Shown piece after piece: positions 21,738-23,474 of a stretch of DNA of 64,000 nt. Under the pieces are notes generated by a model. That model saw only the letters and a list, made by a program, of their open reading frames with translations. It ran no database searches and was not told the origin of the DNA. The translations under genes were made by a program, and so were the position numbers. Source of the stretch: Candidatus Omnitrophota bacterium (GTDB lineage: Bacteria; Omnitrophota; Gorgyraeia; Zapsychrales; Zapsychraceae); NCBI GenBank assembly GCA_015233405.1, contig JADFXT010000007.1:390-64389 (forward strand), given 5' to 3'. The first letter of the stretch is position 1, and each line of letters starts with the position of its first letter.

Positions 21738-23474
21738 ATGAGAAAAAAGGGAGAAAGCGTGGTTATTAAAAATGGCGTTTTGATCGGACAGATCCTCGTC
21801 GAAGAAGGGCTTGTTTCGCACCAACAGCTTGAGTCCGCACTTAAAGAGCAGCAAAGAACGGAAGACTATATTTGTACCATTTTGGTGGCACAAGGATTTG
21901 CTACAGAAAAAGAGGTTTTTACTGTCCTCTCCCGGCAGATAAATGTTCCCTATATTAGTTTAAAAGACCGCAATATTGAGCCGCACATTATTCACAAGCT
22001 GCCGGCAAAATTGGCGAATTATTATAAAGCTGTGCCCGTAGAATTGGATAAGGACACGCTGATCGTGTCCATGGTCGACCCGCGGGACATCCGTGTCCTT
22101 GATGACATGAAGCTTTTGCTGGGGCTTGAGGTCAAAGGGGCTTTGTCCTCACGGCCCGAGATCGAGGAAGCGATCCGTAAATACTATGGCGTGGGGGCAG
22201 ACACCATTGAGAAAATGATCTCGGGGAAGTCCGCAACTCAGAATGTTCTCACGCAGACAGAAAGGATCGACGGGGCTGAAGGACTGGATGATGACGCGAC
22301 CATCATCCGGTTCGTTAACGAAATTTTGTCCGAGGCCATCAAAGACCGGGCGACGGATATTCATTTAGAACCGTATCAAAACGAATTGTGCACGCGGTTT
22401 CGTATTGATGGGGTGTTGTATCCAATTCACACTCCCGACACAGTCAAATATTTCCAGTCCGCGATCGTCTCCCGCATCAAGATCATGGCGCATCTTAATA
22501 TCGCCGAGCGCCGTCTGCCTCAGGATGGGAGGATCAAAATTAAAATTGAGAACAGGGAAATCGACCTTCGGGTTTCGACCATTCCGACGGGATTTGGCGA
22601 ATCGGTCCATATTCGCGTCTTAAGTGCGAAAAGTTTTCTGGAATTAAAAACGCTCGGACTTCTCGAGGAGGATTTAAACACCATCGAGCAAGTGATCCAT
22701 AAGCCCCACGGCGTTATTTTCGTTACCGGGCCGACGGGATCAGGCAAATCGACCACATTATACGCGAGTCTGGCGCATATCAACTCGAGCGCGGTCAAGA
22801 TCATCACTATTGAAGATCCGGTGGAATATCAACTAAAGAATGTCAATCAGATTCAGGTCAACCACAAGATCGGTCTTGATTTCTCGACGGCATTAAGGCA
22901 TATGCTGCGTCATGACCCGGACATCATGATGGTCGGAGAAGTCCGGGATTCTGAGACGGCGGAAATCGCGATTCGCGCGGCCTTGACCGGGCACTTGGTA
23001 TTTTCAACCCTTCACACTAATGACGCGGCCGGAGCGGTGACGCGACTTTTAGATATGGGCATTGAGCCATTTTTGGTGTCGTCATCATTGGAATGCCTTA
23101 TCGCCCAACGGTTGGTCCGGTTGGTGTGCCCTAAATGCAAAGTGCGGGTGGAACCCAAGAAAGAAATTCTCGACGAAATAAAGAGGGACGCGGCGATTCT
23201 TCCTAAGGACGCCACATATTATGAGGGAAAGGGCTGTGAAGATTGCCGGTTTACAGGTTATTGGGGACGGACCGCCATTTATGAAATTATAAAAATGACA
23301 GAGCCGATCCGGGAGTTGATCTTAAAACGCTCGTCGAGCCAGATGATCAAACAAAAAGCCATCGCACAAGGCATGCGCACCCTTCGCCAAGACGGACTAA
23401 GAAAAGTAGCCATGGGCCTGACCACTTTCGTCGAGGTCATGCGCGTGGCGCAACAGGAAGATGTGGGAGAATGA
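21738..23474 (+). CDS. gspE: Type II secretion / type IV pilus ATPase GspE/PilB with an MshEN-type N-terminal domain
   Basis: Walker A GPTGSGKST, Asp/His boxes, and a tetracysteine motif CPKCK...CEDC. Residues 13-70 carry two tandem MshEN-like 24-residue motifs (LIGQILVEEGLVSHQQLESALKEQ and YICTILVAQGFATEKEVFTVLSRQ). Confidence 0.9.
   Translation: MRKKGESVVIKNGVLIGQILVEEGLVSHQQLESALKEQQRTEDYICTILVAQGFATEKEVFTVLSRQINVPYISLKDRNIEPHIIHKLPAKLANYYKAVPVELDKDTLIVSMVDPRDIRVLDDMKLLLGLEVKGALSSRPEIEEAIRKYYGVGADTIEKMISGKSATQNVLTQTERIDGAEGLDDDATIIRFVNEILSEAIKDRATDIHLEPYQNELCTRFRIDGVLYPIHTPDTVKYFQSAIVSRIKIMAHLNIAERRLPQDGRIKIKIENREIDLRVSTIPTGFGESVHIRVLSAKSFLELKTLGLLEEDLNTIEQVIHKPHGVIFVTGPTGSGKSTTLYASLAHINSSAVKIITIEDPVEYQLKNVNQIQVNHKIGLDFSTALRHMLRHDPDIMMVGEVRDSETAEIAIRAALTGHLVFSTLHTNDAAGAVTRLLDMGIEPFLVSSSLECLIAQRLVRLVCPKCKVRVEPKKEILDEIKRDAAILPKDATYYEGKGCEDCRFTGYWGRTAIYEIIKMTEPIRELILKRSSSQMIKQKAIAQGMRTLRQDGLRKVAMGLTTFVEVMRVAQQEDVGE

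What the first reader, a model, noticed from the sequence alone, without database searches (positions are those of the whole stretch)
21774..21950. The T2SS ATPase has an MshEN-type c-di-GMP-binding N-terminus, linking the secretion machine, a PilZ protein and the riboswitch-controlled giants into one putative c-di-GMP regulon
Established knowledge: the MshE N-terminal domain binds c-di-GMP through two tandem copies of the 24-residue motif RLGxx(L/V/I)(L/V/I)xxG(L/V/I)(L/V/I)xxxx(L/V/I)xxx(L/V/I)xxQ.

Seen directly: GspE residues 14-37 read LIGQILVEEGLVSHQQLESALKEQ. Every motif position matches except the first, where R is replaced by L. Five residues later comes YICTILVAQGFATEKEVFTVLSRQ, which retains the hydrophobic, Gly and terminal Gln positions but has YIC in place of RLG.

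The window also encodes a stand-alone PilZ protein (1868-2224) and two GEMM-I-like leaders.

Inference: c-di-GMP may co-ordinately control activity of this T2SS-like machine and transcription of the giant signal-peptide proteins, which are candidate substrates or surface cargo. This is a hypothesis only; nothing in the sequence proves that the giants use this secretion system.
Basis: partly seen in the sequence, partly recalled or inferred. Interest (0 to 1): 0.6.

Follow-up and report, generated by a model that had tools for sequence, protein, structure and literature searches.

The report
Variant c-di-GMP-sensor domain on secretion ATPase
The secretion-motor ATPase of this Omnitrophota bacterium starts with a real MshEN-type domain, the kind that senses the signal molecule c-di-GMP in other bacteria, but one key glycine is replaced by cysteine across the whole clade, so binding is plausible but unproven.

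Summary
The T2SS-like ATPase (21738/21759-23474) carries two 24-residue MshEN motifs with a 5-residue spacer (nt 21780-21938), aligned without gaps to V. cholerae MshE. It passes NCBI's curated "c-di-GMP_motif" model (53.7 bits, cutoff 38). The predicted fold best matches MshE bound to c-di-GMP (5HTL).

c-di-GMP-binding T2SS ATPases have been known since 2015, so the kind is not new. Motif I (LIG...Q) fits the published extended consensus (R/K/L)LG. In motif II (YIC...Q) the Gly that contacts guanine is Cys. This Cys is present in 118 of 119 orthologues. Published substitutions at this Gly weaken binding 10-72-fold or accompany its loss. Binding therefore remains unproven; I put it at about 0.5.

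The regulon idea gains some support. Both giant-gene leaders are c-di-GMP-I aptamers with canonical binding-site nucleotides, each followed by a terminator. Four of 19 orthologous loci also have such an aptamer directly after the T2SS-like genes: three lead large signal-peptide proteins, and the fourth (weaker) leads outer-membrane secretion genes. The positional enrichment is not significant (p=0.08). The leaders look like OFF switches, so control need not be coordinate. The PilZ protein is a weak match with a degenerate motif.

Verdict: a clade-specific variant of a known receptor domain, of moderate interest.

The parts
21759..23474 (+). GspE/PilB-type secretion ATPase. The ORF opens at ATG 21738; the likely start is GTG 21759, giving 571 aa.
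   Evidence: Pfam T2SSE 459.5 bits plus MshEN 58.7 bits. TIGR02533 GspE scores 602.9 (cutoff 630.25) and TIGR02538 PilB 595.6 (cutoff 675.65). It is 100% identical to a 571-aa Candidatus Omnitrophica protein.
21780..21851 (+). MshEN motif I: LIGQILVEEGLVSHQQLESALKEQ
   Evidence: Aligns without gaps to MshE R9-Q32. G, L17, L21 and Q24 are kept; R becomes L and L becomes I. In 119 orthologues the counts are L 103, I 110, G 116, Q 112. It lies within the extended consensus of PMC11731258 except for I at position 2.
21852..21866 (+). 5-residue spacer QRTED between the two motifs
   Evidence: Same length as the MshE spacer (PMC5013675).
21867..21938 (+). MshEN motif II, variant form: YICTILVAQGFATEKEVFTVLSRQ
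   Evidence: Aligns to MshE R38-Q61 with R to Y, L to I, G to C and L54 to V; L58 and Q61 are kept. In the orthologues F is 104/119, I 109, C 118/119, and the terminal Q only 83, with H 16 and K 15.
21942..22193 (+). MshEN C-terminal subdomain (the T2SSE_N / N1E-like alpha/beta part)
   Evidence: Pfam PF05157 covers residues 69-152 of the 578-aa ORF. The AF2 model has pLDDT of about 90 or more through this part.
21738..31613 (+). T2SS-like operon: E, F, G, H, I, J, K, a PilM-PilN fusion (GspL-like), a PilO-like gene (GspM-like), an unknown 177-aa ORF, and the secretin
   Evidence: Pfam and NCBIfam, where GspG passes its equivalog cutoff at 136.8 against 88.85. The same gene order is seen in orthologous loci.
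38816..38893 (+). c-di-GMP-I-type aptamer in the leader of giant gene 1
   Evidence: RF03167 scores 60.4 bits (GA 59), and a lower-scoring match to another family of the same clan also reached its own threshold. The sequence reads GCAAAG where the GGC-variant consensus has GCGAAg. A promoter-like site lies at 38764-38793.
38910..38948 (+). Intrinsic terminator after aptamer 1 (hairpin 38910-38939, T-run 38941-38948)
   Evidence: Its 5' arm CCUAUUCC can instead pair with GGAAUAGG (38866-38873) inside the aptamer.
39150..49757 (+). Giant protein 1 (3535 aa) with an N-terminal signal peptide
   Evidence: The ORF is listed. The N-terminus MFRGQGTTRSNILKTISLIVLFIFIPQTLFAQ is read. Pfam finds PRTase-CE repeats and GDPD.
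49830..49910 (+). c-di-GMP-I-type aptamer in the leader of giant gene 2
   Evidence: RF03167 scores 62.3 bits. The leader is 91% identical to leader 1 over about 520 nt.
49936..49975 (+). Intrinsic terminator after aptamer 2
50196..62120 (+). Giant protein 2. The ORF opens at 50109; the ATG homologous to giant 1's start is at 50196.
   Evidence: Pfam finds 9 PRTase-CE stretches.
1868..2224 (+). Stand-alone PilZ-like protein (118 aa). Its link to the rest is weak.
   Evidence: Pfam PilZ 24.8 bits against GA 22.5. RRDPR is present; DLSLNS replaces D/NxSxxG. There is no NCBIfam hit and no PDB sequence match.

Best explanation
The first ~150 residues of this Omnitrophota T2SS-like ATPase are a true MshEN (GSPII) domain: a four-helix N-subdomain carrying the two 24-residue motifs, followed by an alpha/beta C-subdomain. 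It is a clade-specific variant. Half-site I (L-I-G ... L ... L ... Q) fits the experimentally extended c-di-GMP consensus. Half-site II is remodelled to (F/Y)-I-C ... (V/I) ... L ... Q.

My best reading is that the domain still binds c-di-GMP. The two bases would be clamped between the position-1 hydrophobic residues (L8 and Y37 in 571-aa numbering) and the Leu/Ile clusters. Q31 and Q60 would hold the ribose-phosphate. The Cys at the guanine-contacting Gly position would change the affinity or geometry at the second base. By analogy with MshE and PA14_29490, ligand occupancy would then modulate how the ATPase engages the inner-membrane platform.

Separately, c-di-GMP-I aptamers followed by terminators gate transcription of the two giant signal-peptide proteins. 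The same arrangement occurs directly after the T2SS-like genes in related genomes. The leader architecture predicts termination when c-di-GMP is bound.

Shown: homology, register, fold, clade conservation, the aptamers and the synteny. Inferred: ligand binding, the sign of regulation and the cargo relationship.
For: Homology and fold:
- NF053729 'c-di-GMP_motif' scores 53.7 bits against a cutoff of 38.
- The N-domain matches 5HTL at E=1.7e-13, and the N-subdomain aligns to it without gaps.
- The AF2 model has pLDDT 86.4. The top Foldseek hit is 5HTL, MshE with c-di-GMP, at E=1.7e-10 and TM 0.67/0.76.

Key residues:
- In the window protein 7 of the 12 key residues are identical and 3 are conservative (I for L twice, V for L).
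- Position-1 Leu is experimentally favourable: the K167L mutant has Kd 2 nM, and L196 is the natural motif II residue of a 6 nM binder (PMC11731258).
- Ile for Leu costs only 2.4-fold (PMC12002112).

Conservation:
- The ligand-contact positions are more conserved than the other positions of the 53-residue segment across 119 orthologues of 65-71% identity (mean 0.88 against 0.73). This includes Q31 at 94%.
- Of the 36 replacements of the second Gln, 33 are H, K, R or Y, all able to contact phosphate.
- F or Y at motif II position 1 is a recurrent natural variant: 24 of 182 units among the nearest family representatives.

Precedent: a T2SS-operon ATPase, PA14_29490, binds c-di-GMP through this domain with Kd 480 nM (PMC4624772).

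c-di-GMP use in this lineage:
- Two aptamers in the window carry canonical binding-site nucleotides.
- Aptamers lie right after the T2SS-like genes in L120, L121/L133, L131 and (weaker) L153, and after a paralogous ATPase in L175. Large signal-peptide proteins follow in L120, L121, L131 and L175; GspA-like and GspC-like genes follow in L153.
Against: Motif II position 3 is Cys, not Gly. Every tested replacement there hurts:
- VcMshEN G40I is 72-fold weaker (36 uM) and G11L gives no detectable binding.
- A natural domain carrying G40E and F48K, D. geothermalis ABF44566_III, does not bind.
- Ala against Gly costs 10-30-fold, with the side chain pointing into the pocket (PMC12002112).

The second Gln is only 70% conserved in the Cys clade, against 39/39 in the Gly-type relatives (Fisher p=1.2e-5). 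This suggests a changed constraint on half-site II.

A motif match does not guarantee binding. PilF GSPII-A with a fully restored consensus still does not bind (PMC12002112). The AF2 model makes helix 1 run from residue 2, which is an N-terminally extended helix of the kind that blocks the site in GSPII-A, although pLDDT there is only about 70. Foldseek scores non-binders (9G1W, 2D28, 7LKO) almost as well as binders.

Aromatic residues at position 1 have not been tested. No GGDEF, EAL or HD-GYP gene is in the window. The aptamer enrichment next to the operon is not significant (p=0.08).
Confidence: 0.5

Rival explanations
1. The domain has lost useful c-di-GMP affinity. It serves as a docking module for the platform protein (the PilM-PilN/GspL-like protein) or for a PilZ-type adaptor, as in Xanthomonas, where a degenerate PilB N-domain binds PilZ and c-di-GMP enters indirectly through FimX. 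The conserved exposed hydrophobic residues and the Cys would then be a protein interface.
For: - Gly to Cys is invariant at a position where substitutions cost 10-72-fold or accompany loss of binding (PMC12002112).
- Constraint on the second Gln is relaxed or shifted.
- The fold is about equally similar to the non-binders GSPII-A (9G1W) and XpsE (2D28) and to the X. citri PilB-N:PilZ complex 7LKO.
- XpsE and GSPII-A are precedents for MshEN domains that do not bind (PMC5013675, PMC12002112).
- PilZ genes recur near these loci: L121 14399-14680 and bioRxiv 10.1101/2023.11.21.568195.
Against: - Known non-binders have drifted at many key positions (XpsE at eight). Here 10 of 12 are identical or conservative and stay more than 87% conserved, including Q31, which has no obvious structural role.
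- Hydrophobic position-1 residues raise affinity in PilF GSPII-B, which could offset the Cys penalty (PMC11731258).
- No interaction was or could be tested here.
Confidence: 0.35
2. The remodelled half-site II (F/Y-I-C, with a variable terminal Gln) recognises a different or asymmetric nucleotide, for example 3'3'-cGAMP or pGpG. Alternatively, it makes binding redox-sensitive through the invariant Cys.
For: - Cys is invariant (118/119) rather than merely non-Gly, alongside Ile at position 2 of both motifs. This suggests selection for a specific chemistry.
- MshEN binds cGAMP weakly (PMC5013675).
- Cys at this position is rare in the wider family: 6 of 182 units.
Against: The aptamers in the same loci carry the G20/A47/C92-type nucleotides of c-di-GMP sensors, not the A20 of cGAMP sensors (the position assignment is my own reading). 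There is no second conserved Cys in the domain to form a disulfide or metal site. This rival is purely inferential.
Confidence: 0.1
3. The motif resemblance is a chance match in an ordinary helical N-terminus.
For: None beyond the imperfect motif.
Against: E-values of 1e-13 to 1e-33 to solved MshEN/GSPII domains, a curated-model hit above its cutoff, and a fold match.
Confidence: 0.01

Closest known systems
V. cholerae MshE N-terminal domain (MshEN, PDB 5HTL; PMC5013675, PMC4624772)
   Same: It has the same two-subdomain fold, two 24-residue motifs in the same register with a 5-residue spacer, and it sits at the N-terminus of a GspE/PilB-family ATPase of about 575 aa. It is the best structural match.
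   Different: MshE has R-L-G in both motifs; here they are L-I-G and Y-I-C. MshE powers an MSHA type IV pilus; here the operon is T2SS-like with a GspG pseudopilin. Binding has been measured for MshE but not here.
P. aeruginosa PA14_29490 (HxrA), the c-di-GMP-binding ATPase of a T2SS operon (PMC4624772)
   Same: An MshEN-bearing ATPase encoded in a putative T2SS operon. This is the direct precedent for c-di-GMP acting on a type II secretion motor.
   Different: Its sequence was not compared residue by residue here. The Omnitrophota clade differs by the Cys at motif II position 3.
T. thermophilus PilF GSPII-B (PDB 8PDK, 8PE0; PMC11731258) and GSPII-A (9G1W; PMC12002112)
   Same: GSPII-B shows that Arg at position 1 is dispensable (K/L, Kd 6 nM; K167L 2 nM), as with L8 here. 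GSPII-A shows what a near-consensus non-binder looks like. Both are close fold matches.
   Different: GSPII-B keeps Gly at position 3 in both motifs. GSPII-A has Ala there, plus S, H and R at other key positions. The protein here keeps both Gln residues and a hydrophobic position 1, but has Cys.
X. citri PilB N-domain bound to PilZ (PDB 7LKO) and X. campestris XpsE N-domain (2D27/2D28)
   Same: The same fold on a secretion or pilus ATPase. They illustrate the protein-docking alternative.
   Different: Those domains have lost most motif residues (PMC5013675 lists eight changes in XpsE). Here most are retained.
c-di-GMP-I (GEMM-I) riboswitches, Rfam RF01051 / RF03167
   Same: The aptamer architecture, the conserved GGCAAACC...GGGACGCAAAG core and a terminator expression platform.
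   Different: They score best against the 'GGC' variant model but carry A at the variant-defining column. They sit in front of giant exoprotein genes of Omnitrophota. I found no report of this association in two full-text searches and the two papers on Omnitrophota giant genes.
The T2SS-like locus / giant gene / pilZ neighbourhood of Omnitrophota (West-Roberts et al., bioRxiv 10.1101/2023.11.21.568195)
   Same: The same phylum and the same co-location of gspD/E/F-type genes, giant genes and small pilZ genes.
   Different: That paper does not mention riboswitches or the MshEN domain (0 occurrences).

Membership tests
MshEN / GSPII domain (homology and fold) | Significant match to the Pfam MshEN model (PF05157, C-subdomain) | tested here: met
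   58.7 bits against a cutoff of 23.1, on residues 69-152.
MshEN / GSPII domain (homology and fold) | Match to the curated 53-residue c-di-GMP motif model NF053729 | tested here: met
   53.7 bits against a cutoff of 38, on residues 9-60 of the 571-aa protein, profile positions 2-53 of 53.
MshEN / GSPII domain (homology and fold) | Four-helix N-subdomain followed by an alpha/beta C-subdomain | tested here: met
   The AF2 model has helices 2-15, 21-34, 38-44 and 50-61, then a beta/alpha unit; pLDDT 86.4. Top PDB match is 5HTL with TM 0.76 normalised to the target.
c-di-GMP-binding MshEN (consensus motif of PMC5013675, extended in PMC11731258) | Two 24-residue motifs in tandem separated by 5 residues | tested here: met
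   Gap-free alignment to MshE residues 10-69. The spacer is QRTED.
c-di-GMP-binding MshEN (consensus motif of PMC5013675, extended in PMC11731258) | Position 1 is R, K or L in both motifs (it stacks on guanine) | tested here: inconclusive
   Motif I has L, which is allowed. Motif II has Y (F in 104/119 orthologues), an aromatic never tested. F or Y occurs in 24 of 182 related units.
c-di-GMP-binding MshEN (consensus motif of PMC5013675, extended in PMC11731258) | Gly at position 3 of both motifs (backbone NH to guanine N7, no side chain in the pocket) | tested here: not met
   Motif I has G. Motif II has C, present in 118/119 orthologues. Published penalties: G40I 72-fold, a domain with G40E does not bind, Ala 10-30-fold (PMC12002112).
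c-di-GMP-binding MshEN (consensus motif of PMC5013675, extended in PMC11731258) | Hydrophobic cluster residues at positions 2, 17 and 21 of each motif | tested here: met
   The residues are I, L, L and I, V, L. Ile for Leu costs 2.4-fold (PMC12002112) and Leu to Val costs 4-fold.
c-di-GMP-binding MshEN (consensus motif of PMC5013675, extended in PMC11731258) | Terminal Gln in both motifs (contacts ribose and phosphate) | tested here: met
   Q38 and Q67 in 578-aa numbering. In the clade the second Gln is only 70% conserved.
c-di-GMP-binding MshEN (consensus motif of PMC5013675, extended in PMC11731258) | Measured specific c-di-GMP binding | not testable with these tools
   Needs ITC or DRaCALA on the purified domain.
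Type II secretion ATPase GspE | Equivalog-level match to TIGR02533 | tested here: not met
   602.9 bits against a cutoff of 630.25, aligned only from residue 78. PilB TIGR02538 scores 595.6 against 675.65 and aligns from residue 9. The protein is intermediate: a GspE-like core with a PilB/MshE-type N-terminus.
Type II secretion ATPase GspE | Encoded in an operon with GspF, the pseudopilins GspG-K, L/M-like proteins and a secretin | tested here: met
   (GspG 136.8 against cutoff 88.85). The order is conserved in seven orthologous loci.
c-di-GMP-I riboswitch | Covariance-model score above the Rfam gathering threshold | tested here: met
   RF03167 scores 60.4 and 62.3 bits (GA 59). Overlapping, lower-scoring matches to other families of the same clan also reached their own thresholds.
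c-di-GMP-I riboswitch | Ligand-contact nucleotides of G20 / A47 / C92 type | tested here: met
   The window reads ...CG-GC...GC-AAAG...UAC-CG (alignment). Mapping to Vc2 numbering is my own reading; the paper defining the GGC variant was not available.
c-di-GMP-I riboswitch | Ligand-dependent gene control | not testable with these tools
   A terminator and a competing anti-terminator pairing are predicted only.
PilZ c-di-GMP receptor | RxxxR and D/NxSxxG motifs | tested here: not met
   RRDPR is present. The second motif is DLSLNS, with Ser in place of Gly. The Pfam score is barely above GA.

The most novel reading that the evidence does not exclude
Across Omnitrophota, one c-di-GMP circuit may couple a T2SS-like machine to its giant or large exoprotein cargo by two routes. 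The first is OFF-type c-di-GMP-I riboswitches placed directly after the secretion operon, which shut down cargo transcription (and in at least one relative possibly the outer-membrane module) when c-di-GMP is high. The second is a clade-specific Cys variant of the MshEN sensor on the motor ATPase, whose second half-site has been retuned. Cargo supply and motor state would then respond to the same messenger with different thresholds or opposite signs. This would be a switch between an attack/secretion state and a resting state in these putatively predatory nanobacteria.
Probability: 0.2. Interest if true: 0.65.

Novelty: new variant of a known kind. Interest (0 to 1): 0.4.

Why it matters
Omnitrophota are uncultured, very small, possibly predatory bacteria. 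Their giant proteins and T2SS-like loci are known only from sequence. A messenger that controls both would give the first regulatory handle on when the giants are made and exported. It can be tested with a 65-residue peptide and an 80-nt RNA, without cultivation.

For the MshEN field, this is a whole clade with an invariant Cys at the Gly where every tested substitution weakens binding. That makes it a natural experiment on how far the motif can be changed. Binding would widen the predictive consensus. Non-binding would give a clean rule for excluding thousands of annotated 'c-di-GMP motif' hits.

Tried and rejected
- The one genome-contig scan, with the aptamer core pattern, was not lineage-specific. 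The core AACGGCAAACC...GGGACGCAAAG occurs in many phyla, and only one Omnitrophota locus (L073) appeared among the 80 listed. It was useful only to show that the core is ordinary.
- The paper that defines the c-di-GMP-I-GGC variant is not held. The ligand status of that variant could not be checked, so I relied on the alignment column instead.
- The search of 1.84 billion representatives was topped by multi-repeat MshEN proteins, not orthologues. It was usable only for family-wide residue frequencies.
- The enrichment of aptamers after the operon against upstream flanks was tested: 3 hits in 62 kb against 1 in 148 kb, p=0.08. This is not significant, so I report it as a recurring arrangement and not as a statistic.
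- A second weak hit of my own model in L120 (7027-7102, 24 bits) was not found by Rfam at E<=0.1 and was dropped. The L153 hit (34 bits) was also absent from Rfam and is kept only as 'probable'.
- A PDB sequence search with the PilZ protein gave nothing.
- The AF2 model gives no coordinates to the scripting tool, so the orientation of C39 relative to the pocket could not be examined.
- I considered and rejected the idea that the aptamers are 'GGC-variant' sensors of another ligand. All six Omnitrophota aptamers whose Rfam alignments were inspected have A at the variant column.
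Full report
WHAT IS THERE

The window comes from a Candidatus Omnitrophota genome. The ATPase is 100% identical to a deposited 571-aa Omnitrophica protein, and its closest 119 relatives (65-71% identity) are Omnitrophota or unnamed metagenome proteins.

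The ORF 21738-23474 heads a T2SS-like operon that runs to 31613. Its genes are:
- the ATPase and GspF;
- the major pseudopilin GspG, which passes its NCBIfam equivalog cutoff;
- four minor pseudopilins;
- a PilM-PilN fusion (GspL-like) and a PilO-like protein;
- an unknown 177-aa ORF and a secretin.

The ATPase falls just below both the GspE and PilB equivalog cutoffs. The GspE model aligns only from residue 78, while the PilB model covers the N-terminus. The protein is therefore a GspE-like core with a PilB/MshE-type N-terminal extension.

The real start is probably GTG 21759. A Shine-Dalgarno sequence lies upstream, the deposited protein is 571 aa, and all orthologues start there.

THE OBSERVATION

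The two motifs are present exactly as quoted, apart from an off-by-one in the numbering:
- L15-Q38: LIGQILVEEGLVSHQQLESALKEQ;
- spacer QRTED;
- Y44-Q67: YICTILVAQGFATEKEVFTVLSRQ.

Together they occupy nt 21780-21938.

This is not a chance resemblance:
- The 191-residue N-terminus hits solved MshEN/GSPII domains at E=1e-33 to 1e-7, including MshE itself (5HTL, 1.7e-13).
- The 68-residue N-subdomain alone aligns to MshE residues 10-69 without a gap.
- Pfam MshEN covers the C-subdomain.
- NCBI's curated 53-position 'c-di-GMP_motif' model scores 53.7 bits against a cutoff of 38.
- An AF2 model (pLDDT 86.4) has the expected four helices plus an alpha/beta unit. Its best PDB match is MshE with c-di-GMP (E=1.7e-10, TM 0.67/0.76).

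RESIDUE-BY-RESIDUE COMPARISON WITH MshE

| MshE residue | Residue here |
|---|---|
| R9 | L |
| L10 | I |
| G11 | G |
| L25 | L |
| L29 | L |
| Q32 | Q |
| R38 | Y |
| L39 | I |
| G40 | C |
| L54 | V |
| L58 | L |
| Q61 | Q |

What the literature says about these changes:
- Wang et al. (PMC5013675) defined the motif and the six key residues per repeat.
- Neissner et al. 2024 (PMC11731258) showed that Arg at position 1 is dispensable. PilF GSPII-B has K and L there and binds at 6 nM. K167L binds at 2 nM. The consensus was extended to (R/K/L)LG, and a hydrophobic first residue was proposed as a predictor of very high affinity.
- Neissner et al. 2025 (PMC12002112) showed that Ile for Leu in the cluster costs 2.4-fold.
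- The same paper showed that Ala instead of Gly at motif II position 3 costs 10-30-fold, with the methyl group pointing into the pocket. It also showed that even a fully restored consensus does not bind if helix 1 is N-terminally extended and capped and packs on the C-subdomain.
- The Wang supplement gives G40I as 72-fold weaker (36 uM), G11L as undetectable, Q61A as 12-fold weaker and L29V as 4-fold weaker. It attributes the loss of binding of a D. geothermalis domain mainly to G40E and F48K.

The serious deviation is therefore C46 in 578-aa numbering (C39 in 571-aa numbering), not the missing arginines.

CLADE COMPARISON

Across 119 orthologues the variant residues are themselves conserved:
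- motif I: L 103, I 110, G 116;
- motif II: F 104 (Y once, L 11), I 109, C 118 of 119.

The twelve ligand-contact positions average 0.88 conservation. The other positions of the 53-residue segment average 0.73. Q at the end of motif I is 94% conserved.

The Gln at the end of motif II is only 70% conserved. Of its 36 replacements, 33 are H, K, R or Y.

In 80 metagenome loci recovered with the N-domain alignment there is a clean split. Relatives with about 46% or more N-domain identity carry (F/L)(I/L)C. More distant relatives carry (L/F/R/K/M)(L/I)G, and 39 of 39 of those keep the second Gln (Fisher p=1.2e-5 against the Cys clade).

In the wider family I examined 182 units from the best 150 of 17,417 representatives. 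Motif II position 1 is R 69, K 22, F 19, L 14 and Y 5. Position 3 is G 159 and C 6.

The ancestor therefore looks like an L-L-G ... F-L-G type. The Omnitrophota T2SS clade fixed G to C, and the constraint on the partner Gln changed with it.

This pattern argues for a functional, selected surface, because drifted non-binders such as XpsE have lost eight key residues. It also argues that half-site II does not work exactly as in MshE.

WEIGHING

For retained c-di-GMP binding:
- homology, register and fold;
- both Gln residues in this protein;
- hydrophobic position-1 residues that raise affinity elsewhere;
- strong conservation of contact residues;
- the precedent of a T2SS-operon ATPase, PA14_29490, that binds c-di-GMP through this domain at 480 nM (PMC4624772).

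Against:
- the Cys;
- the shifted constraint on the second Gln;
- the fact that motif conformity is not sufficient;
- an AF2 helix 1 that starts at residue 2, although pLDDT there is about 70.

If the parental Gly form bound in the nanomolar range, as hydrophobic position-1 domains do, a 10-70-fold penalty would still leave sub-micromolar affinity. If it bound like MshE at 0.5 uM, the result would be 5-36 uM, which is borderline.

My probabilities are about 0.5 for physiologically relevant c-di-GMP binding, about 0.35 for a docking-only domain and about 0.1 for an altered ligand or a redox-gated site.

THE 'REGULON' PART

Rfam finds exactly two riboswitches in the window, at 38816-38893 and 49830-49910. 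There is none upstream of the secretion operon.

They score best against the 'c-di-GMP-I-GGC' variant model. However, they have A where that model's consensus has the variant G (GCAAAG against GCGAAg), G before the G-C closing pair, and A-C before the 3' strand of P1. This is the canonical pattern. Other family models of the same clan also reached their own thresholds at these positions. The mapping to Vc2 numbering is my own reading, because the defining paper was not available.

Each aptamer is preceded by a promoter-like site and followed by a strong hairpin with a T-run. The two leaders are 91% identical over about 520 nt, through to the signal peptide. Both giants begin with a clear signal peptide and contain PRTase-CE repeats.

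COMPARATIVE CONTEXT

Seven orthologous loci fetched by exact protein look-up show the same operon order. Rfam found c-di-GMP-I-type aptamers in three of them.

I built a covariance model from six aptamers and searched 1.0 Mb of loci. It recovered those three and added L131, L175, a duplicate (L133) and a weaker L153 hit. Rfam confirms L131 at E=1e-8 but does not find L153.

Placement of the aptamers:
- L120: after the PilO-like gene, before a ~100-aa protein and a cohesin/cadherin giant.
- L121: after gspE-pilM, before a homologous ~100-aa protein, a PilZ, an 1185-aa protein and a peptidase-S8 protein longer than 2000 aa.
- L131: 77 nt after the PilO-like gene, before a signal-peptide protein of more than 800 aa.
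- L175: directly after a paralogous ATPase, before two membrane proteins and a signal-peptide protein of more than 2181 aa.
- L153 (probable): between the PilO-like gene and the GspA-like/GspC-like genes.
- L123: upstream and divergent, before a 98-aa secreted protein.

Among 19 distinct Cys-type loci with at least 8 kb downstream, 4 have an aptamer co-directionally downstream of the T2SS genes. The positional enrichment against upstream flanks is p=0.08. It is a recurring arrangement, not a proven association. No genome-wide background was available.

In all eight leaders the aptamer is followed by an intrinsic terminator whose 5' arm can alternatively pair with part of the aptamer. In the window this is an 8-9-bp duplex between GGAAUAGG and CCUAUUCC. 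That is the architecture of an OFF switch: ligand bound, aptamer closed, terminator forms.

This is thermodynamic inference only. If it is right, high c-di-GMP turns the giants off, whereas c-di-GMP activates MshE-type pilus assembly in Vibrio (PMC4624772). The two arms of the proposed regulon need not move together.

The PilZ protein at 1868-2224 adds little. It is 20 kb from the operon, barely passes Pfam, and has Ser in place of the conserved Gly of D/NxSxxG.

WHAT WAS ALREADY KNOWN

- c-di-GMP-binding ATPases of T2SS and type IV pili: 2015 (PMC4624772).
- The motif and its wide distribution in gsp and pil operons: 2016 (PMC5013675).
- The extended consensus and the non-binder rules: 2024-25 (PMC11731258, PMC12002112).
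- T2SS-like loci and pilZ genes next to Omnitrophota giant genes: 2023 (bioRxiv 10.1101/2023.11.21.568195).

That preprint and a 2026 preprint on complete Omnitrophota genomes do not mention riboswitches or MshEN. A full-text search for Omnitrophota with di-GMP returned no title addressing the link.

New here:
- the clade-wide Cys variant of the motif;
- c-di-GMP-I aptamers with terminators that lead large exoprotein genes right after the secretion operon.

VERDICT

This is a variant of a known receptor domain in a known type of context. Its ligand binding is genuinely uncertain, for a specific reason that can be tested. Interest is moderate (0.4).

Noticed in passing
window 9244-19446: A Tc-toxin/RHS-like pair sits just upstream of the secretion operon. 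It consists of a SpvB + ZU5 protein (9244-11931) and a 2069-aa protein with TcdB middle/N, FG-GAP, RHS repeats and a YD-shell (13237-19446). A 23S-rRNA-IVP-family ORF and a phage-tail-collar/Gp10_C-like ORF lie between them.
   Followed up: no
window 39150-49757 and 50196-62120: Both giants carry multiple stretches matching Pfam PF24390 'PRTase-CE' (5 and 9 stretches). Giant 1 also has a GDPD domain. This is unusual content for signal-peptide surface proteins.
   Followed up: no
window 38740-39260 vs 49760-50310: The two giant-gene leaders are 91% identical over about 520 nt, covering the promoter -10 region, aptamer, terminator, a ~200-nt spacer and the signal peptide. A 20-nt insertion in leader 2 is the main difference. 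The spacer between terminator and start codon is conserved but unexplained. The mechanical ORF start of giant 2 (50109) is probably wrong; the homologous ATG is at 50196.
   Followed up: partly
window 38816-38893, 49830-49910; L120 18163-18258; L121 13813-13890; L123 4792-4871; L131 17837-17914: All six of these Omnitrophota aptamers score best against Rfam's 'c-di-GMP-I-GGC' variant model, yet carry A at the column where that model has its variant G. The family label from clan competition is therefore misleading here.
   Followed up: partly
L120 18328-18633; L121 14011-14364: The first gene after the riboswitch in two relatives is a homologous protein of about 100 aa with no signal peptide (44% identity, tblastn 7e-16; shared sequence ...LL.R..L.FL.K.G.DA.FS...). 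It is possibly a small regulator. It has no homologue in the window.
   Followed up: partly
L153 18045-18129: An aptamer-like element followed by a terminator lies inside a T2SS-like cluster, between the PilO-like gene and the GspA-like AAA / GspC-like genes. If real, it would put part of the machine itself under riboswitch control. It scores 34 bits with my own model but is not found by Rfam at E<=0.1.
   Followed up: partly
L175 1888-3784: A paralogous ATPase with degenerate motifs (SLG...Q / SLD...Y) is followed immediately by a c-di-GMP-I-type aptamer (56.8 bits with my own model). Two membrane proteins and a signal-peptide giant longer than 2181 aa come next.
   Followed up: partly
window 31779-33729 and 20972-21496: A GIY-YIG nuclease-domain ORF and a HAMP-HisKA-HATPase histidine kinase directly follow the secretin. 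An ORF6N/Rha-like (phage antirepressor-type) ORF directly precedes gspE. The window contains no response regulator and no GGDEF, EAL or HD-GYP gene.
   Followed up: no
L121 14399-14680: The small PilZ in the riboswitch-led operon of a relative appears to lack an RxxxR motif. It resembles non-binding adaptor PilZ proteins such as the one that docks on the Xanthomonas PilB N-domain (PDB 7LKO).
   Followed up: no
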